From a virus: a DNA stretch of 64,000 bases. The notes under the pieces are model-generated. The model had not been told where the DNA came from and did no database searches. It saw only the letters and a program-made list of their open reading frames with translations. Below are positions 3,192 to 34,702 of the stretch, in pieces. The position numbers and the translations under genes are program-made. The stretch is from the IMG/VR virus record IMGVR_UViG_3300022602_000039, positions 32,001 to 96,000 of that record; one strand, 5' to 3'. Position 1 is the stretch's first letter, and each line of letters opens with the position of its first letter.

Positions 3192-5654
3192 TTATTTTTT
3201 AAGAATTATAAGAACCTTATCCTTTAGACCAATTTTATATTTGTTCTTTAAATTACCCTTTAAAAGTTCTTCAGCTAGGAAATCTTCAATCTCGTGTTCA
3301 ACTAATCGACGAACACCACGAGCTCCATATTGTTTATCATATTTGTTATCAACAAGATATTCAAGAACATCATCATTAATAGTAAGGGTTAATTTATGAT
3401 TTTGCTCAATACGATCAAGAATTTTTTTAGCTTCTAAAGCAATAACAGATTTAATACTATCTTTATCTAATTTATTGAATATTATAAGCCCATCTAGGCG
3501 GTTTAAAAGTTCAGGTTTAAAATGGCTCTTTGCCTGTTCAAGTACTTTCTCTCGGGCACTCGTTGAGACTTCAGGTAGTTTATGCGCGTTAAATCCCATA
3601 GCAACATCCTTTGTACTCGTCATTACTTCGGCTCCAAGATTAGAAGTCATAATAATAATAGTATGTCTGAAGTCTACTTTTCTACCTTCACCATCGGTGA
3701 GTGTTCCATCTTCAAGAACCTGAAGAAGAAAATGGAGTACATCCGGATGTGCTTTTTCAATTTCATCCAATAATACAACACTGTAGGGATTACGGCGAAT
3801 CTTTTCAGTCAATTGACCGCCTTCTCCATAACCTATATATCCCGGAGGTGCACCAATAAGCCTAGAGAGTGCAAATTTTTCCATATATTCTGACATATCT
3901 ATCTTTACTAACGCATCCTTATTCTTATAAACAATGTCAGCAATAGTCTGTGCCAAATACGTCTTGCCAACACCAGTTGGACCAAAGAAAATGAATGATC
4001 CAGTGGGACGCTTTGGATCTTTAAGGTCTAATCTACCTTTCTTTAATATTCGTGATACCTCTTTTATGGCTTCATCTTGACCGATAATAGTAGAAGATAA
4101 AGTTGATTCTAAACGAAGCAATTCTTCTTTGCCTGTTTCACGAAGTTCAGTCAACGGAATACCCGTAATAGTTGAAAGAGTTGTTAATACATCCTCTCGT
4201 TCAATAGTAATATCGGAGCGTTCTTTTTTATCTAAAAATTCTTTCTTTATTTGATCACGTTTCTTAACTAAGTTTTTTTCTTTGTCTCGCATCTTAGCTG
4301 CTTTCTCAAAGTCCTGTTTAGCCACCAATCTCTCCTTTTCAAGTGCTAATTCTTTAATTTGTTCGTTAAGTTTAAGAACTTCATCAGAAGTAGAGAGTGC
4401 ATTGATTTTAGCTCTTGATCCTGTTTCATCCATAATATCAATGGCTTTATCAGGTAGATATCTAGATGGCAGATAACGATCGGAATACTTTACCATATCT
4501 ACAATTACATTATTTGGAATAATTACCCCGTGGTGAGTCTCATAATGTGGACGGATACCTTTAAGAATTTCAATAGCTTGATCTACTGTTGGGGGGTTAA
4601 CCGTTATGGATTGAAAGCGACGTTCTAAGGCATTGTCCTTTTCTATATATTTTCTGTATTCATTAAACGTTGTAGCACCAATGCATTGAACTTCTCCACG
4701 ACTTAGAGCAGGTTTAAGAATATTAGAAGCATCCATTGTGCCCTCAGCACTACCTGCACCTACCATTGTATGTAATTCATCAATAAAGAGAATTATATTT
4801 CTTTTTTCTTTTACCTCCTGCATTACTGCTTTAATCCGTTCTTCAAATTGACCACGAAACTTAGTACCAGCAACCATTAGAGTAAGATCAAGAGAAAGAA
4901 CTCGTTTGTTAGCAATAATAGAAGGTACATCTCCATCAACAATTTTTTGTGCTAAACCTTCAACAATTGCAGTTTTTCCGACTCCTGCTTCACCAATGAG
5001 AACAGGATTATTTTTTGTTCGACGACAAAGAATCTGAATCATTCGCTCAATTTCTTTTTCACGGCCTACAACAGGATCAATTTTATTTTCTTTAGCGAGT
5101 TTAGTAATGTCGCGTGCAAAGACATCTAAAGCTGTTTGCTTCCCGTCAGTTCTATTTCCACCACCTGCACCTACTGATTGAAATTTATCTTCATCCTCGT
5201 CTTCATCCTCATCAAAAGGAAGAACTGATGGGTTAAGTTCTTTAACAATTTCTTGACGAACAATATTAAGATCAACATTGAGCTTGTGAAGCACAGAAGC
5301 TGCCATACCATCCTTCTCTTTAATAAGACCGAGAAGAAGATGTTCGGTTCCAATATAAGTATGACCAAGTGCTTTAGCCTCGCGACCAGCTAATACAAGA
5401 ACTTTGTTAGCACGAGGGGAATAAATTAAATTTGGCACTACCTTTTTGCTATTGGCAGCATTCCTCTCTATAGTTTCAAATATATCATTTAGATTATTAA
5501 TAATCTTCTTAAGAACATTAACAGCAAGACCCTGATTTAAACGGAGAATACCAAGTAAAATGTGCTCTGTACCTACGTATCCGCTCTGTAAACGTTCAGC
5601 TTCCTTCTTTGCTAAAGCTAAGGCCTGTTGTGCTCTTGGTGTTAAGTTATTCAC
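3192..5654 (-). CDS. clpC: ATP-dependent Clp protease ATP-binding subunit ClpC
   Basis: Two Clp_N repeats (GTEHILLG), two AAA+ modules ([16 protein letters not shown]), KFRG and GYIG pore loops, short UVR-type M-domain ([11 protein letters not shown]), MGF ClpP-binding loop. Confidence 0.95.
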
Positions 5655-9973: not shown

Positions 9974-10120
9974 TTATTTCCGCTTTTTACCAGCATCCGA
10001 GCGTTGAGCTCGATACTTCGTCTTACAGCTTGCTGGCTTTCCAGCGTTCAATTGACGACGGAGAAACGCTGCAGTTTCATACCGACGTGAACTTCCCTTA
10101 ATGACTTGAACCCACGGCAT
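9974..10120 (-). CDS. small basic ORF fused to truncated tRNA-Asp
   Basis: MPWVQVIKGSSRRYETAAFLRRQLNAGKPASCKTKYRAQRSDAGKKRK*; its ATG lies inside the tRNA sequence. Confidence 0.45.
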   Translation of the reverse strand: MPWVQVIKGSSRRYETAAFLRRQLNAGKPASCKTKYRAQRSDAGKKRK

Positions 10121-10164
10121 CATGCGTGACAGGCATGCGCTCTAACCAGCTGAGCTACAACTCC
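10103..10164 (-). pseudogene. tRNA-Asp(GTC), 3'-truncated at the T-loop
   Basis: GGAGTTG-D arm-CATGC CT GTC AC GCATG-GTGGG TTCAAGT C, then no T-stem 3' strand or acceptor 3' strand. Confidence 0.85.
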
Positions 10165-10170
10165 GTTATT

Positions 10171-10243
10171 TCGTGATGGAGAGACTCGAACTCTCGGTTC
10201 CTTGCTCCCAAAGCAAGTGCCATAGCCGCTAGGCGACATCACG
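10171..10243 (-). tRNA. tRNA-Pro(TGG)
   Basis: Cloverleaf CGTGATG/CATCACG; CTTGC TT TGG GA GCAAG; no encoded CCA. Confidence 0.95.
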
Positions 10244-10256
10244 TTAAACTGTTATT

Positions 10257-10330
10257 TAGGACTAGCTGGGTTCGAACCAGCGACCCTGCGCTTATCAAGC
10301 GCATGCTCTGACCAGCTGAGCTATAGTCCT
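10257..10330 (-). tRNA. tRNA-Ile(GAT)
   Basis: AGGACTA/TAGTCCT; TGCGC TT GAT AA GCGCA. Confidence 0.95.
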
Positions 10331-10335
10331 GAAAA

Positions 10336-10411
10336 TGGTACGCGAGGAGGGATTTGAACCCCCGACATTTTCCGTGTAAAGGAAACGCTACTACCCCTGA
10401 GCTACTCGCGC
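10336..10411 (-). tRNA. tRNA-Val(TAC)
   Basis: GCGCGAG/CTCGCGT ACCA; TTTCC TT TAC AC GGAAA. Confidence 0.95.
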
Positions 10412-10458
10412 AATATTATTAATATATAAGCTTATTATTGTATATGCAATATAAAAGA

Positions 10459-10533
10459 TGGTGGAACCGTCGAGATTTGAACTCGAAACCAATTCGTTAA
10501 AAGCGAACTGCTCTACCGTTGAGCTACGATTCC
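10459..10533 (-). tRNA. tRNA-Lys(TTT)
   Basis: GGAATCG/CGGTTCC ACCA; GTTCG CT TTT AA CGAAT. Confidence 0.95.
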
Positions 10534-10537
10534 AAAA

Positions 10538-10613
10538 TGGTGGAACTGCAAGGAATCGAACCTTGTTCTAAACGTCCGTAGCGTTTCGTGATATTCCATT
10601 TCACTACAGTTCC
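10538..10613 (-). tRNA. tRNA-Arg(ACG)
   Basis: GGAACTG/CAGTTCC ACCA; AAACG CT ACG GA CGTTT. Confidence 0.95.
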
Positions 10614-10617
10614 AAAT

Positions 10618-10638
10618 TAGTGCTCAGGGAGAGACTCG
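10618..10638 (-). pseudogene. tRNA 3'-end remnant (T-loop to acceptor)
   Basis: CGAGT CTCTC CCTGAGC A CTA, fused to the 3' end of tRNA-Leu(TAG). Confidence 0.7.
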
Positions 10639-10705
10639 GGTGGGAGTCGAACCCACAAAATTCTGCTCCTAAGGCAGACGGATATGCCAATTCTCCTACC
10701 GAGGC
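10632..10705 (-). tRNA. tRNA-Leu(TAG), short variable loop, chimeric 3' end
   Basis: GCCTCGG/CCGAGTC (2:71 mismatch); TCTGC CT TAG GA GCAGA; 5-nt V loop. Confidence 0.85.
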
Positions 10706-11178
10706 GTTATTTTTTTAATGTATGATTTCTTAGCTGCTGTCGGGCAACCGTCTTTATATTTATATCTGTTTTTTCTGTATGTATCAGTTTGACTGTGACA
10801 GTTAGGACATAAAAGACGTATATTTTCTCTTCTGTTATCCAACCTATCACCGTTAATATGATCTAATTCTATAGTAATTTCTTTTCCCTGCCAGCTTTTT
10901 ATACCGCATAAAGAGCATTTATTTTCTCTCTCTCTAAAAACCCATTTGCGCAACGTTGTGCTTGGAATAAATTTTTTTGTAGTAAACACATCTGCTTCTG
11001 TTTTATAAGATTTGGGCTTTACTCTACCTTTTCCAGCAGGATTAGGATCAAATAAATCATACTCTTCAGCTTTAGTTTTAAAGACACTATAACTGCACTT
11101 AAGATATCTTGCAGCTGCCTGCATTGATAGTGTTGCAGCTATGGCACCCTTTATTTGTTCGTATGAAAAGTTTCTCAT
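10696..11178 (-). CDS. HNH homing endonuclease
   Basis: CSLCG...IELDHINGDRLDNRRENIRLLCPNCHSQT; stop codon lies inside the tRNA-Leu 5' end. Confidence 0.9.
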   Translation of the reverse strand: MRNFSYEQIKGAIAATLSMQAAARYLKCSYSVFKTKAEEYDLFDPNPAGKGRVKPKSYKTEADVFTTKKFIPSTTLRKWVFRERENKCSLCGIKSWQGKEITIELDHINGDRLDNRRENIRLLCPNCHSQTDTYRKNRYKYKDGCPTAAKKSYIKKITPR

Positions 11179-11188
11179 ACGGTTATTT

Positions 11189-11227
11189 ATGTTAGACGTA
11201 TTAATTATATTGTAATACGTCTAACAT
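11189..11227. promoter_or_regulatory. 15-bp perfect inverted repeat abutting the late promoter of the HNH gene
   Basis: ATGTTAGACGTATTA-9 nt-TAATACGTCTAACAT. Confidence 0.7.
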
Positions 11228-11232
11228 TTAAA

Positions 11233-11517
11233 TTATTTACCTCGGATTACAATAATTTGAGGTTGTTGTGGTGGTACAACAATGGGGGCTGCGTAATAGG
11301 TCGGATAATAACCACCGTAGCAAGGATAATACCCACCGTAATAAGGATAATATCCACCATAGTAACCACCCCATCCGCCTACAAATCCGCCTCCCCAGCA
11401 TCCTCCTCGATAATACCCACCGCCATAGTACCCACCACCGCAGTAGTAGGCTTTGGCTGGCATCAAGCTACAGAGAAAGAGTGTAACAAGAGCAATAGCG
11501 AGTGTTTTGAGTTTCAT
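11233..11517 (-). CDS. secreted Gly/Tyr-rich low-complexity protein
   Basis: Signal peptide MKLKTLAIALVTLFLCSLMPAKA followed by GGYY repeats. Confidence 0.7.
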   Translation of the reverse strand: MKLKTLAIALVTLFLCSLMPAKAYYCGGGYYGGGYYRGGCWGGGFVGGWGGYYGGYYPYYGGYYPCYGGYYPTYYAAPIVVPPQQPQIIVIRGK

Positions 11518-11558
11518 ATGAGTATTATGGCTATATTTAGTTGTATATGCAAGCAAAA

Positions 11559-11640
11559 TGGTGAGGACGGTTGGGATCGAACCAACATACTCCAGTTACA
11601 CATTTAACGACCGCTTAGAAGGCGGGTGTGATACGTCCCC
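11559..11640 (-). tRNA. non-canonical tRNA-Arg(TCT) lacking a D-arm, with a long variable region
   Basis: GGGGACG/CGTCCTC ACCA; only TATCACA precedes the anticodon arm CCCGC CT TCT AA GCGGT; 23-nt V region; GTTGG TTCGATC CCAAC. Confidence 0.8.
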
Positions 11641-11646
11641 GTAAGT

Positions 11647-11853
11647 TTAATATTTAAACAAATCTAGAATACCTTTTTGTTTATCTAATTCCGTAATAAA
11701 ACCTTCGTCTTCAAGATATTTTTTAATACTATCCCAAGCTCGTTCTTCAAGAAAACCTCGTGTCTGAACTGCAACCTGAGTACCGTTAACTTCACAATTA
11801 AACTCCATACCACTATAAACAATAGTAAAAGAATATTGATTATGTTTTTTCAT
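11647..11853 (-). CDS. hypothetical protein (YLxxEGF motif)
   Basis: Shares its C-terminal motif with 17665-17877. Confidence 0.6.
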   Translation of the reverse strand: MKKHNQYSFTIVYSGMEFNCEVNGTQVAVQTRGFLEERAWDSIKKYLEDEGFITELDKQKGILDLFKY

Positions 11854-12033
11854 TGACGATGAAGCTCAGCAGTTGGTAGAGGCCTATATGTACGAATGAA
11901 ATTCCTGATAGGAGTACTAAAAATAAGACATGTTGATACTACGATGAGTATAGCTAGAGAACAGCTAAAGACAAGCTTCATCTTTAGTGTTTGTTTTAAT
12001 TCTGGTTGTTGTTTAAGTTGCATATATAAAAAA

Positions 12034-12056
12034 TGGTACCTGTGGTCGGATTCGAA
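12034..12056 (-). pseudogene. tRNA 3'-end remnant (Leu-like)
   Basis: TTCGAAT CCGAC CACAGGT A CCA with no upstream tRNA body. Confidence 0.8.
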
Positions 12057-12085
12057 AATAAAGATTCAAAAGCATAAATATTATT

Positions 12086-12799
12086 ATGCCTTGTTTATTT
12101 CCTATTAATATAGCTCAATCTGTTAAGAAGTGCGACGGAAAAATTATAAAATTTAAATGTGATGGTTGTGGAGAAATATACCTAAAAAGTAAAGTATATT
12201 GGTATCATAATGTCATTAACAAGAAACGCACGGTTTCTTTTTGTACTAAACAATGTGAAATGAAATATAGGTTTGTACGATGTGGTAGTATTAATGGTAA
12301 ATGTAAACAGTGTGAAAAGAATATAGTTGTGAGAAAACGTGATCAAAAGCTACGAAAAAATCACTTCTGCTCTAAAAGTTGCGCCGCTACATACAACAAT
12401 ACACATAAGCAATCAGGTACCCGCCGCTCAAGACTCGAAAAATGGATTGAGGAACAGCTTATTATTCTATATCCGAATATACAATTTAAGTTTAACAAAA
12501 AAGATGATATTGAATCAGAACTCGATATCTATATACCACATTTAAAGTTAGCGTTTGAGCTTAATGGTATATTTCATTACGAACCAATTTTTGGTAAGCA
12601 GTTACTTGAAAAAATGGAAAATAATGATCAACGAAAAATGCAAGCGTGTTTAGAACGAGGTATTGAACTTTGTATTATTAATACATCTCAGCAAACATAT
12701 TTTAAATCACGTACATCGCAAAAATATTTAGATATTATAACTAATATTATTAATAATAAAATGGTGGTCCTACCCGGGGTCGAACCGGGAAGCCTTTAG
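12086..12799 (+). CDS. Zn-finger + PD-(D/E)XK (Vsr/DUF559-like) putative homing endonuclease
   Basis: CxxC repeats, FCSKSCAATYNN, RSRLE...ELDIYIPHLKLAFELNGIFHY; ends antisense inside tRNA-Leu(TAA). Confidence 0.85.
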   Translation: MPCLFPINIAQSVKKCDGKIIKFKCDGCGEIYLKSKVYWYHNVINKKRTVSFCTKQCEMKYRFVRCGSINGKCKQCEKNIVVRKRDQKLRKNHFCSKSCAATYNNTHKQSGTRRSRLEKWIEEQLIILYPNIQFKFNKKDDIESELDIYIPHLKLAFELNGIFHYEPIFGKQLLEKMENNDQRKMQACLERGIELCIINTSQQTYFKSRTSQKYLDIITNIINNKMVVLPGVEPGSL

Positions 12800-14652: not shown

Positions 14653-15357
14653 ATGAAATGCACAAATTGCAACAATGAACTTATACACCGTGATCAAAAA
14701 AAATTTTGTTGTCGGTCATGCGCGGCTTCTTATAACAATAAGATCAAGGGACCTAGGTCAATCACTACAAGGGAAAAAACGAGTAAGACATTAAAAGATC
14801 GTGCCGATAAATTAGGTAGAAAACACCCTAAGAATGGATCAATGTTTGTAAGAGTATGTCGTATATGTAAAACAGAATTTTTGCATGTGAAATATAGCAA
14901 GAATTTATGCAGCTATAAATGTCAGGTTGAACTGAAAAGATTTTTTAATAAGCAGGTTCAAGCTCAAGGTAGAGGTATATGGGCAAAACGTAGTCGAAGC
15001 AAGGGCGAAAAATTACTCGCTGAAAAATTAGCTAAAATTGGAGCTAACGTTATAACAAACAAGCACATGTTTAGTGGCTACGATGCAGATATAATTTTAC
15101 CGGATTATAAGTTAGCCATACATTGGAACGGTGCTTGGCACTGGAAGCCCTTAAGAGGTGAGCAGTTACTCAAAAAGATAAAAGCACGGGATGAAGAACG
15201 ATATAAAGCTGTTGAACAGGCAGGGTATATAAACCTTATAATTATAGACCATAAATTCACCACAGCGGAGCAAGCTGCCGATATACACTTTCGAAAGCTG
15301 GTGCGCTTGCTCGGACTTGAACCGAGACCAGGGGATTATCTATCCGAACAGGTATAA
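14653..15357 (+). CDS. Zn-finger + PD-(D/E)XK putative homing endonuclease
   Basis: KFCCRSCAASYNN, RSKGE...YDADIILPDYKLAIHWNGAWHW; likely ATG at 14653 after ATAAATA; ends antisense in tRNA-Ile(TAT). Confidence 0.85.
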   Translation: MKCTNCNNELIHRDQKKFCCRSCAASYNNKIKGPRSITTREKTSKTLKDRADKLGRKHPKNGSMFVRVCRICKTEFLHVKYSKNLCSYKCQVELKRFFNKQVQAQGRGIWAKRSRSKGEKLLAEKLAKIGANVITNKHMFSGYDADIILPDYKLAIHWNGAWHWKPLRGEQLLKKIKARDEERYKAVEQAGYINLIIIDHKFTTAEQAADIHFRKLVRLLGLEPRPGDYLSEQV

Positions 15358-15388
15358 GCTGTCCTGCTCTACATTAAGCTACAAGCGC
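15299..15388 (-). tRNA. tRNA-Ile(TAT) with long variable arm
   Basis: GCGCTTG/CAAGCGC ACCA; GGACAG CT TAT AC CTGTTC; GGAT-AGATA-ATCC hairpin in the V region; CTCGG TTCAAGT CCGAG. Confidence 0.8.
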
Positions 15389-24277: not shown

Positions 24278-25927
24278 TTATGCTTCACAGTTTGCACAAG
24301 CTAGAATAGAACGAGCTAATTCTTGAGCTGGGTTCGCCGAACGCTGATAATACAGTGCTTTGATTCCTTGCTCCCATGCAAATATCATAAGTTCATTAAC
24401 GTCCTTAGGCTTTGTATTCGGTGGAATCATTACGTTCAATGATTGACCTTGATCGATGTATTTCTGACGACCGGCAGCTTGGATAATAATCTCCTTCTGA
24501 GAGATTTCACCGAATGTCTTAAAGACATCCTTTTCAGCCTGAGTTAGGAAATCAAGATGTTGAACTGATCCACCCTTCTTTAGGATAGACATCCATGTTT
24601 CGTCATCATGCTTTCCTTTCTCCTTGAGAAGGTGCTTAAGATATGGGTTCTTAAAAGTAAACTTACCCTTAGCTAGATCCTTAACAAAGTAGTTACTGTT
24701 TAAAGGTTCGATAGACGGGCTTACCTGACCAAGAATAAACGAACTTGAAGTAGTTGGAGCTACGGCCAACGTTGTTGTATTTCTACGACCATATCCCTTA
24801 AGAAGTGGTGGTTCGCCGAATTCCTTAGCAAGCTCTACAGAAGCTTTATCTGCCTTATCTCTAATTATCTTCCAAATCTGACCATTGAGAAGCTTAGCCT
24901 GCATTGATTCGAATGCAATCATCTTCTGTTGAAGAAGTGAATGCCACCCTAGAACTCCAACACCGATTGCTCGTTGATTAATAGCAAAGTTTCTTGGATG
25001 ATTCATGAACTTCATTCCATCGGTTTTATTGATGAACTCAGTCATGACTGCATCGAGGAAATAAACAAGGGTTTCAACAGCATCTGTTTCCTTCCAGTCT
25101 TCCCAACGCTCAAGATTAAGTGAAGAAAGATCACAGACAAACGATTCATCAATACCGTTAGAGAGCATGATCTCTGAGCACAAATTACTATGATGAATCT
25201 TTAATCCCTTATCTTTATAAACTTGAGGTGCTTGATTATTGGCATTATCTGTAAAGAAGATATAAGGGTAACCTGATTCAAAGCGCTTCTTAATAACTTG
25301 TCCCCAGATGGCGCGTTTTTCCTTATCACCCTCCATCATGGATTTCATCCATTCATCGGTAATACAAACACCAATAGAAAGATTCTGAATATCATCACCT
25401 TCACCTCTGATCTTAAGGAATTCCTCAATGTCAGCATGATCAATAGGGAGGTAAGCTGCAAACGAACCACGACGTACATTACCTTGGGAAATGTAATTTG
25501 TTAATGACTCAAAAACAGTTAACTGGTGGTGAACACCCGTTGCTTCACCGCCGGAGGAAATCTTAGCACCTCTTGGTCTAATGGCACCAAAGTATCCTGA
25601 CGTACCACCACCGACCTTTGACATAACACCAACTTCAGACATCTTATAAAGGATATCGTCCATATCATCATTTACATAAGAACCAAAACAACTAATTGGT
25701 AACCCGCGATCACGACCAAAATTACTCCAAATAGGTGATGATAAGGAATAAAATCCCTTGTGCATATAATCCTCAAACTTATGAGCAAATCCCTTAATCT
25801 TTAAGAGCTTTTCAGCTGTCTTTGCGATGTCGGTAATACGTTGTTCGGCAGTTTCTCCTTCTAGAAGGTAACCACGTTCGAGAAACTTTCTCGAATCCTT
25901 ATTAAGCCAGTAGATATCCTTATGCAT
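24278..25927 (-). CDS. nrdA: ribonucleotide reductase class Ia alpha subunit (no ATP cone)
   Basis: LPISCF, SNLCSEI, APTTSSS, IEP, ALYYQRS, C-terminal CANCEA. Confidence 0.95.
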   Translation of the reverse strand: MHKDIYWLNKDSRKFLERGYLLEGETAEQRITDIAKTAEKLLKIKGFAHKFEDYMHKGFYSLSSPIWSNFGRDRGLPISCFGSYVNDDMDDILYKMSEVGVMSKVGGGTSGYFGAIRPRGAKISSGGEATGVHHQLTVFESLTNYISQGNVRRGSFAAYLPIDHADIEEFLKIRGEGDDIQNLSIGVCITDEWMKSMMEGDKEKRAIWGQVIKKRFESGYPYIFFTDNANNQAPQVYKDKGLKIHHSNLCSEIMLSNGIDESFVCDLSSLNLERWEDWKETDAVETLVYFLDAVMTEFINKTDGMKFMNHPRNFAINQRAIGVGVLGWHSLLQQKMIAFESMQAKLLNGQIWKIIRDKADKASVELAKEFGEPPLLKGYGRRNTTTLAVAPTTSSSFILGQVSPSIEPLNSNYFVKDLAKGKFTFKNPYLKHLLKEKGKHDDETWMSILKKGGSVQHLDFLTQAEKDVFKTFGEISQKEIIIQAAGRQKYIDQGQSLNVMIPPNTKPKDVNELMIFAWEQGIKALYYQRSANPAQELARSILACANCEA

Positions 25928-28548: not shown

Positions 28549-28638
28549 TGGAAGGAGCGGTGGGATTCGAACCCACGGAACCGATTAAGGTTCGGGAATT
28601 TAGTAAATTCCTGCTTTCGGCCTCTCAGCCACACTCCC
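28549..28638 (-). tRNA. tRNA-Ser(ACT), rare A34 anticodon
   Basis: GGGAGTG/CGCTCCT TCCA; GGAAT TT ACT AA ATTCC; long V arm. Confidence 0.9.
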
Positions 28639-32560: not shown

Positions 32561-33415
32561 ATGTTAACTCAATATGAAAAATGGCTCAAGGGCGCTGGAA
32601 AGAGTAACGCTAAAAGATATCAACAAAGATTAAACAATTACAACAATAATCCTAAATTATGTGCGTATTGCAAACATCCTTTAAGCTATGAATTGAGAAA
32701 TAACAAATACTGCGACCATACTTGTTCTGCTTCCTTTACGAATAAAAGTAGATCAGAGTCAGGATATAGTTTAAAAGGAAAAACAAAAGCATCTATTTGC
32801 ACTAAATGTAATAGTACTGTAGAAATAGGTTGTAATGCATCAGCTTTAAGAGCATTATGTACCAAATGTAAATTACAATATGTACGTAAACACTGTAAGC
32901 AATGTAAAAATATATTTTACGGTAGACCAAATAGAAAGACATGTAGTAATGAGTGTGCTAGTTTAGCAAAACGTATAGGGGCTATTAATGGAGGTAAAAA
33001 ATCTGCTGCTATACAATCTCAAATAAGAAGAAGCAAAAATGAAATATATTTTGCTGAACTTTGTAAATTACATTTTACAAATGTTTTAACAAATGAACCT
33101 TTGTTTAACGGTTGGGATGCTGATATTATATTGCCTGATTTTAAAATAGCTATAATGTGGAACGGTGCTTGGCATTATAAACAAATAACAAAAAAGCATT
33201 CTGTAGAACAGGTACAAAATAGAGACAAAATAAAAATAAAAGAAATCGAACAGGCAGGTTATACATCTTATGTAATAAAAGATCTAGGCATTGAAAATAA
33301 AAAATTTGTCATTAATCAATTTAATAAGTTTCTTAAAAATATGGCGGGAGTGGGAATTGAACCCAACGCGCTCTTTCGAGCTGATGCTTATGAGACATCC
33401 GACTTTGTCCTCTAG
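32561..33415 (+). CDS. Zn-finger + PD-(D/E)XK putative homing endonuclease
   Basis: YCDHTCSASFTN, RSKNE...WDADIILPDFKIAIMWNGAWHY; likely ATG at 32561 after TAAATA; reads antisense across most of the CAT tRNA. Confidence 0.85.
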   Translation: MLTQYEKWLKGAGKSNAKRYQQRLNNYNNNPKLCAYCKHPLSYELRNNKYCDHTCSASFTNKSRSESGYSLKGKTKASICTKCNSTVEIGCNASALRALCTKCKLQYVRKHCKQCKNIFYGRPNRKTCSNECASLAKRIGAINGGKKSAAIQSQIRRSKNEIYFAELCKLHFTNVLTNEPLFNGWDADIILPDFKIAIMWNGAWHYKQITKKHSVEQVQNRDKIKIKEIEQAGYTSYVIKDLGIENKKFVINQFNKFLKNMAGVGIEPNALFRADAYETSDFVL

Positions 33416-33426
33416 TCTATCCCGCG
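33342..33426 (-). tRNA. tRNA-CAT (Met-type) with C1:C72 mismatch and long variable arm
   Basis: CGCGGGA/TCCCGCC A; GATGT CT CAT AA GCATC; V arm GCTC GAAA GAGC. Confidence 0.8.
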
Positions 33427-34255: not shown

Positions 34256-34702
34256 TGGTGGAGACGACGGGAATCGAACCCGTGTGTTTATACTGTTCTA
34301 TTTATACTTCTACACGCTTAGATAAACTTCGTACTTTCGTTGACTCCAGGTAACAAGGCGTTATCAACCTATCTATGTTTATAGTCCTACCTATGCAGAT
34401 GAAGAGTCCTGCACGACCCCTTGCACTCAGTTTTCTAAGAATCACAAGACCTTCTAAACCTATTTTTATTTCCAAAAGCTTTAATAGGATTATCTTTTGG
34501 TTCCTTAGGCAGCTAGAAGTGCTGGCTCTTCAAAGCTGGCGAGGATTTCGTCAGCGTTCTCGAGACAATACAATGCTTCCGCAAGGATGGCGTCAGAGTT
34601 ATCTTCTGCGTTTAGTTTTTTAATCAGCTTTTATAGTGGCCAACTGATTAACCACTGCGTGCCGCATAAACTTCGAGTATAAGTCGAAGCCATTACGTCC
34701 CC
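34256..34702 (-). ncRNA. ssrA: tmRNA with 34-aa tag AEDNSDAILAEALYCLENADEILASFEEPALLAA
   Basis: 5' GGGGACGTAATGGCTTCGAC; 3' ACGGGTTCGATTCCCGTCGTCTCCACCA; G3.U pair; tag ORF 34609-34505 ending LAA*. Confidence 0.95.

What the first reader, a model, noticed from the sequence alone, without database searches (positions are those of the whole stretch)
11559..11640. D-armless tRNA-Arg(UCU) whose variable region seems to supply the D-loop
Seen: only TATCACA lies between acceptor and anticodon stems. The 23-nt variable region contains TGTG-TAACTGGA-GTAT; TGTG can pair with CACA, and TAACTGGA reads like a D-loop with the conserved GG. Acceptor stem, T arm and CCA are intact. Inference: a topologically rewired tRNA that rebuilds the elbow from the V region, or a tRNA-mimic decoy for anticodon nucleases.
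Basis: partly seen in the sequence, partly recalled or inferred. Interest (0 to 1): 0.85.

Follow-up and report, generated by a model that had tools for sequence, protein, structure and literature searches.

The report
Phage arginine tRNA with rewired core
This lake-phage gene is very probably a working arginine tRNA (it reads AGA) that is not a cloverleaf: one strand of its D stem and its D-loop-like segment lie after the anticodon arm, a layout shared by many phages and usually missed by gene finders.

Summary
Observation confirmed. On the minus strand, 11640-11559, lies an 82-nt tRNA-like gene. It has a 7-bp acceptor stem, an anticodon arm (UCU), a T arm and ACCA, but only 7 nt where the D arm should be and 23 nt before the T stem.

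It is not an artefact. A contig from another sequencing run spans it unchanged, and I collected 66 distinct relatives from phage contigs.

In these, the three pairs joining nt 11-13 to nt 40-42 across the anticodon arm are paired in 66 of 66, with 1, 27 and 15 double changes.

All 66 carry arginine anticodons (UCU 62, CCU 2, ACG 1, UCG 1), C35, and A or G at the discriminator in 63.

In four near-complete phage genomes the rewired gene supplies an arginine anticodon that no ordinary tRNA there covers. In phage Bas94 it occupies the slot of the ordinary tRNA-Arg(UCU) of a related kuravirus.

Expression, charging and 3D shape are untested. Nine informative text searches found no description.

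This scan has reported the same family before, on other DNA.

The parts
11559..11640 (-). Whole gene: rewired tRNA-Arg(UCU), 79 nt plus encoded CCA
   Evidence: Sequence. RF00005 31.3 bits. Family model R1 93.1 bits.
11634..11640 (-). Acceptor stem, 5' strand (RNA nt 1-7)
   Evidence: Pairs with 11563-11569. 7 of 7 pairs in the window. All 7 pairs show double changes in the family and 99.4% of cells are paired.
11631..11633 (-). Connector TAT (nt 8-10). T8 is the likely counterpart of U8.
   Evidence: T, A, T in 66 of 66, but AT was required by my filter. The role is inferred.
11627..11630 (-). Helix S1, 5' strand (nt 11-14, CACA). Runs straight into the anticodon stem. Inferred counterpart of D-stem strand 22-25.
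   Evidence: Pairs 11-42, 12-41 and 13-40 are paired in 66 of 66 with 1, 27 and 15 double changes. Pair 14-39 is a standard pair in 18 of 66.
11610..11626 (-). Anticodon arm (nt 15-31): stem, loop CTTCTAA, anticodon UCU at 11617-11619
   Evidence: All 5 stem pairs show double changes. The 15-31 pair is C.U here and in 18 of 66.
11603..11609 (-). Conserved 7-nt bulge (nt 32-38, CGTTAA + N) between the anticodon stem and the S1 3' strand
   Evidence: In alignment A2, whose members came from scans that constrained this segment partly or not at all: C32, T34, A36 and A37 in 66 of 66, G33 in 52, T35 in 62. The role is unknown. Pairing to TAAY is not supported.
11599..11602 (-). Helix S1, 3' strand (nt 39-42, TGTG). 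Inferred counterpart of D-stem strand 10-13.
   Evidence: In a scan of all column pairs for mutual information, 12-41 ranks 5th and 13-40 ranks 10th.
11587..11598 (-). D-loop-like 12-nt linker (nt 43-54, TAACTGGAGTAT), with GG and the A that follows it
   Evidence: GG kept in 62 of 62 and the following A in 61 of 62 intact members found with a 5'-anchored pattern. The motif resembles the D loops AGTTGGATA (L025) and AATGGAATA (this window's Arg-ACG).
11570..11586 (-). T arm (nt 55-71): 5-bp stem, loop TTCGATC
   Evidence: 99.1% of cells paired in the family.
11562..11569 (-). Acceptor stem 3' strand (nt 72-78) and discriminator A (nt 79)
   Evidence: Discriminator in the family: A 32, G 31, T 2, C 1 of 66.
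11559..11561 (-). Encoded CCA
   Evidence: CCA is encoded in 42 of 66 family members.

Best explanation
The gene encodes a functional elongator tRNA-Arg(UCU) for the AGA codon. It belongs to a widespread, essentially phage-restricted family whose core is wired differently from the cloverleaf.

Shown: the acceptor stem, anticodon arm and T arm are ordinary. A short helix, S1 (3 pairs always, 4 in this window), joins the nucleotides just before the anticodon stem to nucleotides lying 7 nt after it, so the anticodon hairpin sits inside S1. A conserved 12-nt segment with GG-A follows S1 and leads into the T stem.

Inferred: S1 takes the place of the D stem, stacked on the anticodon stem. The 12-nt segment takes the place of the D loop, with GG contacting the T loop to form the elbow and the following A serving as the A20 determinant for ArgRS. 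The block 'D-stem 5' strand + D loop' has in effect been moved from before to after the block 'D-stem 3' strand + anticodon arm'. The molecule would still form an L shape, be charged by the host ArgRS and decode AGA.
For: (1) The gene is real. A contig from an independent run spans it with 0 differences. There are 66 distinct relatives, and 267 GenBank phage records match a family member.

(2) S1 is supported by covariation.
- Pairs 11-42, 12-41 and 13-40 are paired in 66 of 66, with 1, 27 and 15 double changes and nine helix sequences.
- The S1-only covariation score is 0.518. Shuffles give 0.108 +/- 0.020, with 0 of 500 reaching the observed value. Slid controls give at most 0.067.
- S1 pairing was not a selection criterion for the alignment.
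- An unsupervised mutual-information scan ranks 12-41 and 13-40 among the stem pairs.

(3) Arginine identity.
- Anticodons are UCU 62, CCU 2, ACG 1 and UCG 1 of 66, from a pattern that left the anticodon free.
- C35 is present in 66 of 66, U or G at position 36 in 66 of 66, and A or G at position 73 in 63 of 66.
- These match the bacterial arginine identity set A20, C35, U/G36, A/G73 (PMC9976931, passages seen).

(4) The gene fills a decoding gap.
- The 130-kb record has 19 ARAGORN tRNAs. The only arginine one is ACG.
- AGA accounts for 499 of 1139 arginine codons (43.8%) in 118 ORFs.
- In three 99-100% complete phage records and the whole Bas94 record, no ordinary tRNA carries the rewired copy's anticodon. 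In Bas94 it is the only tRNA-like gene.
- In the 24 kb of Streptomyces phage Genie2 that I examined, the annotated arginine tRNAs are CCU, UCG and ACG, and the rewired UCU gene is unannotated.

(5) Allelic replacement. In Bas94 the rewired gene lies between the same flanking genes as the annotated tRNA-Arg-TCT of Kuravirus IMEP8. Kuraviruses typically keep a single tRNA, Arg-TCT, for AGA (PMC9965538, passages seen).

(6) Genomic setting. 74 of 81 members lie within 1 kb of another tRNA call.
Against: - No RNA run was listed for this DNA, so no expression, processing or charging data were available.
- Thermodynamic prediction does not recover S1. RNAalifold on the 66 sequences predicts only the acceptor, anticodon and T stems. 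The window's MFE fold has a GTTA/TAAC hairpin instead. S1 is in the MFE of 2 of 66 sequences and lowers the computed energy in 15 of 66.
- S1 is only 3 standard pairs in 48 of 66.
- The window's anticodon stem has a C.U mismatch.
- The invariance of the TGGAGTAT segment in alignment A2 was imposed by the search patterns. The less biased estimate rests on 62 sequences, and one of them (L173) has C instead of the A after GG.
- L025 carries an ordinary tRNA-Arg(UCU) right next to the rewired one, so the rewired gene is not always the only AGA decoder.
- The window's record is only 60% complete, so an ordinary tRNA-Arg(UCU) could lie in the missing part.
- The 3D equivalence to the D stem and D loop is inference only.
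Confidence: 0.75

Rival explanations
1. A tRNA mimic that is not used in translation. Examples: a decoy or sponge for a host tRNA-Arg-directed nuclease or another tRNA-binding defence protein, or a regulatory or primer RNA. It would keep enough tRNA features to be bound.
For: Phage tRNAs are known to counter tRNA-targeting defences (PMC10264068, PMC11464382 and PMC11555353; listing and abstracts seen). One locus (L025) carries both an ordinary and a rewired Arg-UCU gene. Two related kuraviruses carry different alleles at the same site, which could reflect a conflict. No charging data exist.
Against: A decoy need not complete a tRNA set. Yet in four near-complete genomes the rewired copy carries exactly an arginine anticodon with no ordinary counterpart, and in G004 that anticodon is ACG rather than UCU. 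The full acceptor stem, the A/G discriminator (63 of 66), U33, A37 and the T loop are all kept. AGA is the commonest arginine codon of this phage.
Confidence: 0.14
2. A truly D-armless tRNA with a class-II-like extra hairpin. GTTA (nt 33-36) would pair with TAAC (nt 43-46), as in the minimum-free-energy fold, and CACA/TGTG would not pair.
For: The MFE and centroid of the window's sequence show this hairpin. 94.6% of cells can pair.
Against: There is no covariation: 0 double changes, and the score of 0.074 is not above the shuffles (0.090; 450 of 500 reach it). Changes at nt 33 (A in 12, T in 2) and nt 35 (C in 4) are not compensated. Nt 46 is G or A in 6 and absent in 7. This fold also leaves the perfect covariation of 11-13 with 40-42 unexplained.
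Confidence: 0.04
3. The precursor is cut and rejoined, or otherwise processed, into an ordinary cloverleaf, as happens with permuted or intron-containing tRNA genes.
For: Permuted and split tRNA genes exist in algae and archaea (PMC3218864, listing and abstract seen).
Against: The 5' and 3' acceptor strands are already in the normal order. Restoring the cloverleaf order would need two cuts and two ligations inside a 79-nt RNA. No intron-like element matched Rfam.
Confidence: 0.02
4. A decaying tRNA pseudogene or an assembly error.
For: Gene finders miss it. Truncated relatives exist (L152; the 63-nt remnant at 10098-10160).
Against: An independent contig is identical. There are 66 distinct sequences with compensatory changes in all four helices and 94.6% of cells paired.
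Confidence: 0.01

Closest known systems
Ordinary class I bacterial and phage tRNA-Arg(UCU) (Rfam RF00005). In-session examples: the annotated tRNA-Arg-TCT of Kuravirus IMEP8 (L227:940-1013) and L025:1522-1598.
   Same: 7-bp acceptor stem, anticodon arm with loop CUUCUAA, T arm with TTCGA, A/G discriminator, and a GG-A motif like the arginine D loop. Same genomic slot in kuraviruses and the same presumed job of decoding AGA.
   Different: There is no D hairpin between nt 9 and 26. The helix that replaces the D stem encloses the anticodon arm. The D-loop-like segment follows the anticodon arm. There is an extra conserved 7-nt bulge.
D-armless mitochondrial tRNAs of animals (for example mt tRNA-Ser(AGY), mite and nematode minimal tRNAs). 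PMC2797822: abstract seen. Details recalled.
   Same: No D hairpin at the usual place. Missed by standard finders.
   Different: Those are shortened RNAs (well under 70 nt) that have lost the D loop and the GG/T-loop contact. They work with adapted mitochondrial machinery. Here the RNA is 79 nt, keeps GG, and has a covarying replacement helix. The hosts are ordinary bacteria.
Non-standard cloverleaf tRNAs with 8/4 or 9/3 acceptor/T branches (allo-tRNAs, some in phages). Mukai et al. 2017, PMC5389517: passages seen.
   Same: Natural, conserved departures from the standard tRNA secondary structure. Some lie in phage tRNA clusters.
   Different: Those keep the cloverleaf order of arms and change stem lengths. 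Here the stem lengths are standard (7/5) and the order of core segments differs. The passages found with my terms do not mention tRNA-Arg.
Circularly permuted and split tRNA genes (Cyanidioschyzon merolae, some archaea). PMC3218864: listing and abstract seen.
   Same: Segments of a tRNA occur in a non-standard order in the DNA.
   Different: There the gene is permuted and processing restores an ordinary mature cloverleaf. Here the termini are normal and the rearrangement is internal, so it should persist in the mature RNA (inference).
[quoted passage not shown] The 121Q record annotates its copy as tRNA-Leu(taa).
   Same: Long stretch between the anticodon stem and the T stem.
   Different: Class II tRNAs have a D arm and a covarying variable hairpin. 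Here the candidate hairpin shows no covariation and the anticodons are all arginine.
Phage tRNAs that escape tRNA-targeting defences through anticodon-loop changes (PMC10264068, abstract seen; PARIS, PMC11464382, abstract seen).
   Same: Phage-encoded tRNA variants that differ from the host's.
   Different: Those vary the anticodon loop. Here the loop is ordinary and the core is rewired. No link to a defence system was tested.

Membership tests
tRNA (Rfam RF00005, standard cloverleaf) | Score at or above the curated gathering score (29 bits) | tested here: met
   31.3 bits, the lowest of 18 matches in the record. Not listed in the whole-window run with default filters.
tRNA (Rfam RF00005, standard cloverleaf) | 7-bp acceptor stem, discriminator, T arm with a T-loop motif, 5-bp anticodon stem with a 7-nt loop and U33 | tested here: met
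   The anticodon stem has 4 pairs plus C.U in the window. All three helices covary in the family.
tRNA (Rfam RF00005, standard cloverleaf) | D hairpin (stem 10-13/22-25 with D loop) between nt 9 and 26 | tested here: not met
   Only 7 nt lie between the acceptor and anticodon stems. The model aligns 4 nt to 15 D-arm positions.
Bacterial tRNA-Arg identity set (PMC9976931) | C35 and U/G36 | tested here: met
   Window UCU. C35 in 66 of 66; position 36 is U in 64 and G in 2.
Bacterial tRNA-Arg identity set (PMC9976931) | A or G at position 73 | tested here: met
   Window A. Family A 32, G 31, T 2, C 1 of 66.
Bacterial tRNA-Arg identity set (PMC9976931) | A20 in the D loop, presented to ArgRS | tested here: inconclusive
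   An A directly follows GG (nt 50) in 61 of 62 intact members found without constraining that segment. Whether it sits where A20 sits is a 3D question.
Bacterial tRNA-Arg identity set (PMC9976931) | Aminoacylation with arginine | not testable with these tools
   Needs an ArgRS assay or charged-tRNA sequencing.
Rewired phage tRNA-Arg family (model R1, built here) | Full-length match to the family model, with S1 enclosing the anticodon arm | tested here: met
   93.1 bits, positions 1-79. The window's sequence was among the 66 used to build the model. Other members score 81-98 bits and ordinary tRNAs at most 39 bits.
Animal mitochondrial D-armless tRNAs | Shortened RNA without a D loop or the GG/T-loop contact | tested here: not met
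   79 nt. GG conserved in 62 of 62. T loop TTCGA conserved.
Class II (long variable arm) tRNA | Covarying variable-arm hairpin together with a D arm | tested here: not met
   The candidate hairpin 33-36/43-46 has 0 double changes and is not above the shuffles. There is no D hairpin.
Circularly permuted tRNA genes | The 3' half precedes the 5' half in the gene, so the acceptor strands are out of order | tested here: not met
   The acceptor 5' strand is at the 5' end, and the 3' strand with ACCA is at the 3' end.

The most novel reading that the evidence does not exclude
The rewired core is a counter-defence design. It would keep everything that ArgRS, EF-Tu, RNase P and the ribosome read, while removing the ordinary D hairpin that some host (or phage) tRNA-directed nuclease or sensor needs. 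Phages that carry it would then keep decoding AGA when ordinary tRNA-Arg is destroyed. The replacement of the ordinary allele by the rewired one at the same site in kuraviruses, and the family's spread across phages labelled with hosts from Escherichia to Streptomyces and Campylobacter, would be traces of that conflict. If so, this would be a natural tRNA outside mitochondria that works in translation without being a cloverleaf.
Probability: 0.2. Interest if true: 0.95.

Novelty: new variant of a known kind. Interest (0 to 1): 0.85.

Why it matters
The cloverleaf order of arms is treated as universal for cytoplasmic tRNAs, and gene finders, Rfam and annotation pipelines all assume it.

This family, if functional, would show that the L shape can be built from a different chain topology and still serve bacterial ArgRS and ribosomes. 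That bears on how tRNA structure evolved and on the design of orthogonal tRNAs.

It also means phage tRNA inventories are undercounted. ARAGORN called 3 of 93 copies. GenBank records label copies as nothing, tRNA-OTHER, tRNA-Undet, tRNA-TERM or tRNA-Leu.

Cultured E. coli phages carry it (Bas93/94, phi92, 121Q and relatives, Felixounavirus-like phages), so direct tests are easy.

Tried and rejected
- Pseudoknot or hairpin GTTA/TAAY (nt 33-36 with 43-46). I proposed this after the MFE fold. Rejected: no covariation, and uncompensated changes.
- Thermodynamic support for S1. None was found. S1 rests on covariation alone.
- Promoter and terminator scan of 10000-12200. 9 promoter-like sites against 6.2 +/- 2.8 expected, and 2 terminator-like against 1.6. 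None is placed to define the gene.
- Expression. No RNA holder was listed for this DNA. Contigs of X2 and X4 break inside 11537-11627 at low depth, which I treat as no evidence.
In the 24 kb of Streptomyces phage Genie2 that I examined, the R1 hit on tRNA-Ile(tat) (34.4 bits) is an ordinary cloverleaf. The lead was neither confirmed nor refuted for other phages.
- One search used a pattern with one N too many. Its 4 hits (L130-L133) are chance matches and were ignored.
- Of the 43 non-standard matches, I judged 38 by eye to be chance matches in AT-rich coding DNA (no anticodon-stem pairing), 4 to be intact variants and 1 to be truncated.
- Literature. Ten text searches found no description of a phage or bacterial tRNA with this layout. 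One search was uninformative because only the two phage terms matched. Subscription journals and supplements are not covered. The supplementary tables of PMC9965538 (tRNA and codon tables) and the supplementary figures of PMC5389517 were not seen and could bear on this.
- I could not learn which part of the similar claim 'fell' in the later check mentioned in note e1-118661.
- G003 (121Q): only 60 kb of 348 kb was examined for other arginine tRNAs.

Full report
WHAT IS THERE. Read on the minus strand from 11640 to 11559, the sequence is GGGGACGTATCACACCCGCCTTCTAAGCGGTCGTTAAATGTGTAACTGGAGTATGTTGGTTCGATCCCAACCGTCCTCACCA.
- It has a 7-bp acceptor stem (one G-U pair).
- Three nucleotides (TAT) follow, then CACA.
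- An anticodon arm follows directly: 4 Watson-Crick pairs plus a C.U mismatch, loop CTTCTAA, anticodon UCU.
- Seven nucleotides follow, then TGTG.
- A 12-nt segment with TGGAG follows.
- Then come a standard T arm, discriminator A and CCA.

ARAGORN tRNAs in the window but not this one. Rfam at gathering thresholds on the whole window does not list it. A local search gives RF00005 at 31.3 bits against a cut-off of 29, with the D arm deleted and a 20-nt insertion.

NOT AN ARTEFACT. The window is part of a 130,033-nt IMG/VR virus record, 60% complete by CheckV, GC 35%. Four lake-water metagenome runs hold the region. One of them may be the source. A contig from another run of a different sample and study covers 11420-11702 with no difference. 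No RNA run was listed.

A FAMILY. A blastn search of 601 nt found the gene in 19 phage records. Five of them aligned over the full length, and a compensatory pattern was already visible: CAC/GTG, CTC/GAG, CTT/AAG.

Pattern scans of IMG/VR gave 41 loci with a strict pattern. I kept sequences with at least 6 acceptor pairs, 4 anticodon-stem pairs and 4 T-stem pairs, and did not ask for S1 pairing. This gave 66 distinct sequences (alignment A2).

A family member also matches 267 GenBank phage records labelled Escherichia (143), Salmonella (53), Klebsiella (40), Streptomyces (6), Campylobacter (5) and others. In the rows listed, most had no feature annotated under the match, and a few had tRNA-OTHER, tRNA-Undet, tRNA-TERM or tRNA-Leu.

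One scan of 185,579 prokaryote species genomes found 4 matches. All four are family members on MAG contigs. Three of them have 3 to 14 ARAGORN tRNA calls in the fetched stretch and one has a single call. I read them as phage contigs; that is an inference.

THE HELIX ACROSS THE ANTICODON ARM. On A2 the four-helix structure has 94.6% of cells paired, against 63.8% in shuffles, and 19 of 21 pairs show double changes.

For S1 alone:
- Pairs 11-42, 12-41 and 13-40 are standard pairs in 66 of 66, with 1, 27 and 15 double changes.
- Pair 14-39 is standard in 18 of 66. Otherwise it is mostly A.C (36) or C.A (10).
- The covariation score is 0.518 against 0.108 +/- 0.020 in shuffles (0 of 500 reach it) and at most 0.067 when the partner is slid.
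- Nine different 3-bp helices occur.
- A scan of all column pairs for mutual information ranks 12-41 fifth and 13-40 tenth, among the ordinary stem pairs.

Results against S1. RNAalifold does not predict it. The window's MFE fold has a GTTA/TAAC hairpin instead. In the nearest-neighbour model S1 is energy-neutral in the window (-19.4 kcal/mol with or without it), lowers the energy in 15 of 66 and is in the MFE of 2 of 66. The GTTA/TAAY hairpin itself has no covariation and shows uncompensated changes.

A covariance model of the family (R1) separates members from ordinary tRNAs. Across 87 loci, 48 full-length hits score 81-98 bits, one cut hit scores 65.9, one divergent second copy scores 53.5, and 23 ordinary tRNAs score at most 39 bits. 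The window's gene scores 93.1 bits and the next hit in its record 22 bits.

ARGININE IDENTITY. With the anticodon left free by the search pattern, the 66 sequences carry UCU (62), CCU (2), ACG (1) and UCG (1), which are all arginine. C35 is invariant, position 36 is U or G, A37 and U33 are invariant, and the discriminator is A or G in 63 of 66. The bacterial arginine identity set is A20, C35, U/G36 and A/G73 (PMC9976931, passages).

The segment after S1 contains GG followed by A. This resembles the D loops of the ordinary tRNA-Arg(UCU) in L025 and of this window's own tRNA-Arg(ACG). In A2 that segment was fixed by the patterns. A scan anchored on the 5' half instead gave 101 distinct matches, of which I judged 62 to be intact members. 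Of these, 58 have TGGAGTATG, three have CGGAGTATG and one has TGGCGTATG. So GG is kept in 62 of 62 and the following A in 61 of 62.

DOES IT DECODE? This is indirect evidence only.

(a) The record has 19 ARAGORN tRNAs. The only arginine one is ACG, and AGA is 43.8% of arginine codons.

(b) In records that are 99-100% complete, and in the whole Bas94 genome, the rewired copy supplies an arginine anticodon that no ordinary tRNA covers:
- G001 (87 kb): 25 tRNAs, arginine only ACG, rewired UCU.
- G002 (149 kb): 15 tRNAs, no arginine, rewired UCU.
- G004 (139 kb): 27 tRNAs, arginine only CCU, rewired ACG.
- Bas94 (70 kb): no other tRNA at all.

(c) Bas94 is kuravirus-like. Its rewired gene lies between the same flanking genes as the annotated tRNA-Arg-TCT of Kuravirus IMEP8, and the flanks align. 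Kuraviruses are described as carrying a single tRNA, Arg-TCT, matched to their raised AGA usage (PMC9965538, passages).

(d) 74 of 81 members lie within 1 kb of another tRNA call.

Against a simple gap-filling picture, L025 has an ordinary and a rewired Arg-UCU gene side by side.

STRUCTURAL MODEL (INFERENCE). In an ordinary tRNA the chain runs 8-9, D-stem 5' strand, D loop, D-stem 3' strand, 26, anticodon arm, variable loop, T stem. Here it runs 8-9-(10), a strand that leads straight into the anticodon stem, the anticodon arm, a 7-nt bulge, the partner strand, a D-loop-like segment, T stem. This is the ordinary order with two adjacent blocks exchanged.

From textbook tRNA geometry (recalled, not computed), residue 9 lies against the D stem, residues 44-45 lie next to pair 10-25, and A21 and residue 48 lie next to each other under the 8-14 pair. 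So the three new junctions are short.

Candidate counterparts exist for U8 (T8), A14 and R15 (A44, A45), G18 and G19 (G48, G49), A20 (A50), Y48 (T54) and the T-loop partners. An alternative mapping treats AGTAT as an ordinary 5-nt variable loop; the same five letters precede the T stem in two ordinary tRNAs of other loci. I cannot choose between the two mappings. The role of the conserved CGTTAA bulge is unknown.

KNOWN OR NEW. Nine informative text searches and targeted reading found no description of this layout. The papers read were Mukai et al. on 8/4 and 9/3 tRNAs, a survey of viral tRNA genes, the eLife paper on phage tRNAs and defences, and the kuravirus paper. The library lacks most subscription journals, and supplements were closed.

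Notes of this scan show that the same family has been reported many times since October 2026 on other DNA, with the same reading and the same negative literature result. One note says that part of a similar claim later fell, without saying which part. I therefore avoid calling the family unannotated or strictly phage-only, and I mark the 3D equivalence and the function as inferred.

VERDICT. The gene is real and conserved. The helix across the anticodon arm is well supported. Function as an arginine decoder is probable but untested.

Noticed in passing
window 15299-15388 (-): A 90-nt tRNA-Ile(UAU) with an ordinary D arm plus an extra 4-bp hairpin in the variable region. The 5-nt loop of that hairpin reads AGATA, so it contains GAU, the anticodon of the ordinary tRNA-Ile. 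It resembles the 'two anticodon arms' isoleucine tRNA of scan note e1-121598.
   Followed up: partly
window 33343-33425 (-): An 83-nt tRNA with anticodon CAU and a long variable-arm hairpin (4-bp stem with a GAAA loop), which is unusual for a Met or Ile2 tRNA. RF00005 scores 39.3 bits.
   Followed up: no
window 10098-10160 (-): A truncated tRNA-like remnant next to tRNA-Pro. The D arm and an anticodon arm reading GUC (Asp) are present. The 3' strands of the T stem and acceptor stem are missing. RF00005 scores 31.7 bits over model positions 5-66.
   Followed up: partly
window 28549-28638 (-): tRNA-Ser with anticodon ACU (A at position 34). ARAGORN calls the same anticodon in the 121Q stretch examined.
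   Followed up: no
window 34256-34702 (-): Phage-encoded tmRNA, RF00023 at 111 bits, full length, next to tRNA-Ala. Streptomyces phage Genie2 also has an annotated tmRNA in its tRNA region.
   Followed up: no
window 3192-5654 (-): An 820-aa ClpB/ClpC-like AAA+ chaperone (Clp_N, two AAA domains, UVR motif, ClpB_D2-small) encoded by the phage. A ribonucleotide reductase lies at 24278-25927.
   Followed up: no
L104:13348-13426: A divergent second copy beside a standard CCU family member. It has the same TAT start and UCU loop but a shorter bulge, a weak S1 (2 pairs by eye) and a longer D-loop-like segment. R1 scores 53.5 bits, and ARAGORN calls it a 98-nt tRNA-Arg(tct).
   Followed up: partly
L173 and L152 (IMG/VR loci): L173 is an otherwise intact member with C instead of the A after GG. 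L152 holds only the 5' half of a member, up to TAAT, followed by unrelated sequence.
   Followed up: no
L228 (Bas94, PQ850617.1) 923-1001: The listed locus tags jump from Bas94_0082 to Bas94_0084 exactly where the rewired tRNA lies. No feature is listed there.
   Followed up: no
L025:1522-1598 and 1614-1692: An ordinary tRNA-Arg(UCU) and a rewired one lie 15 nt apart on the same strand of a 154-kb viral contig.
   Followed up: partly
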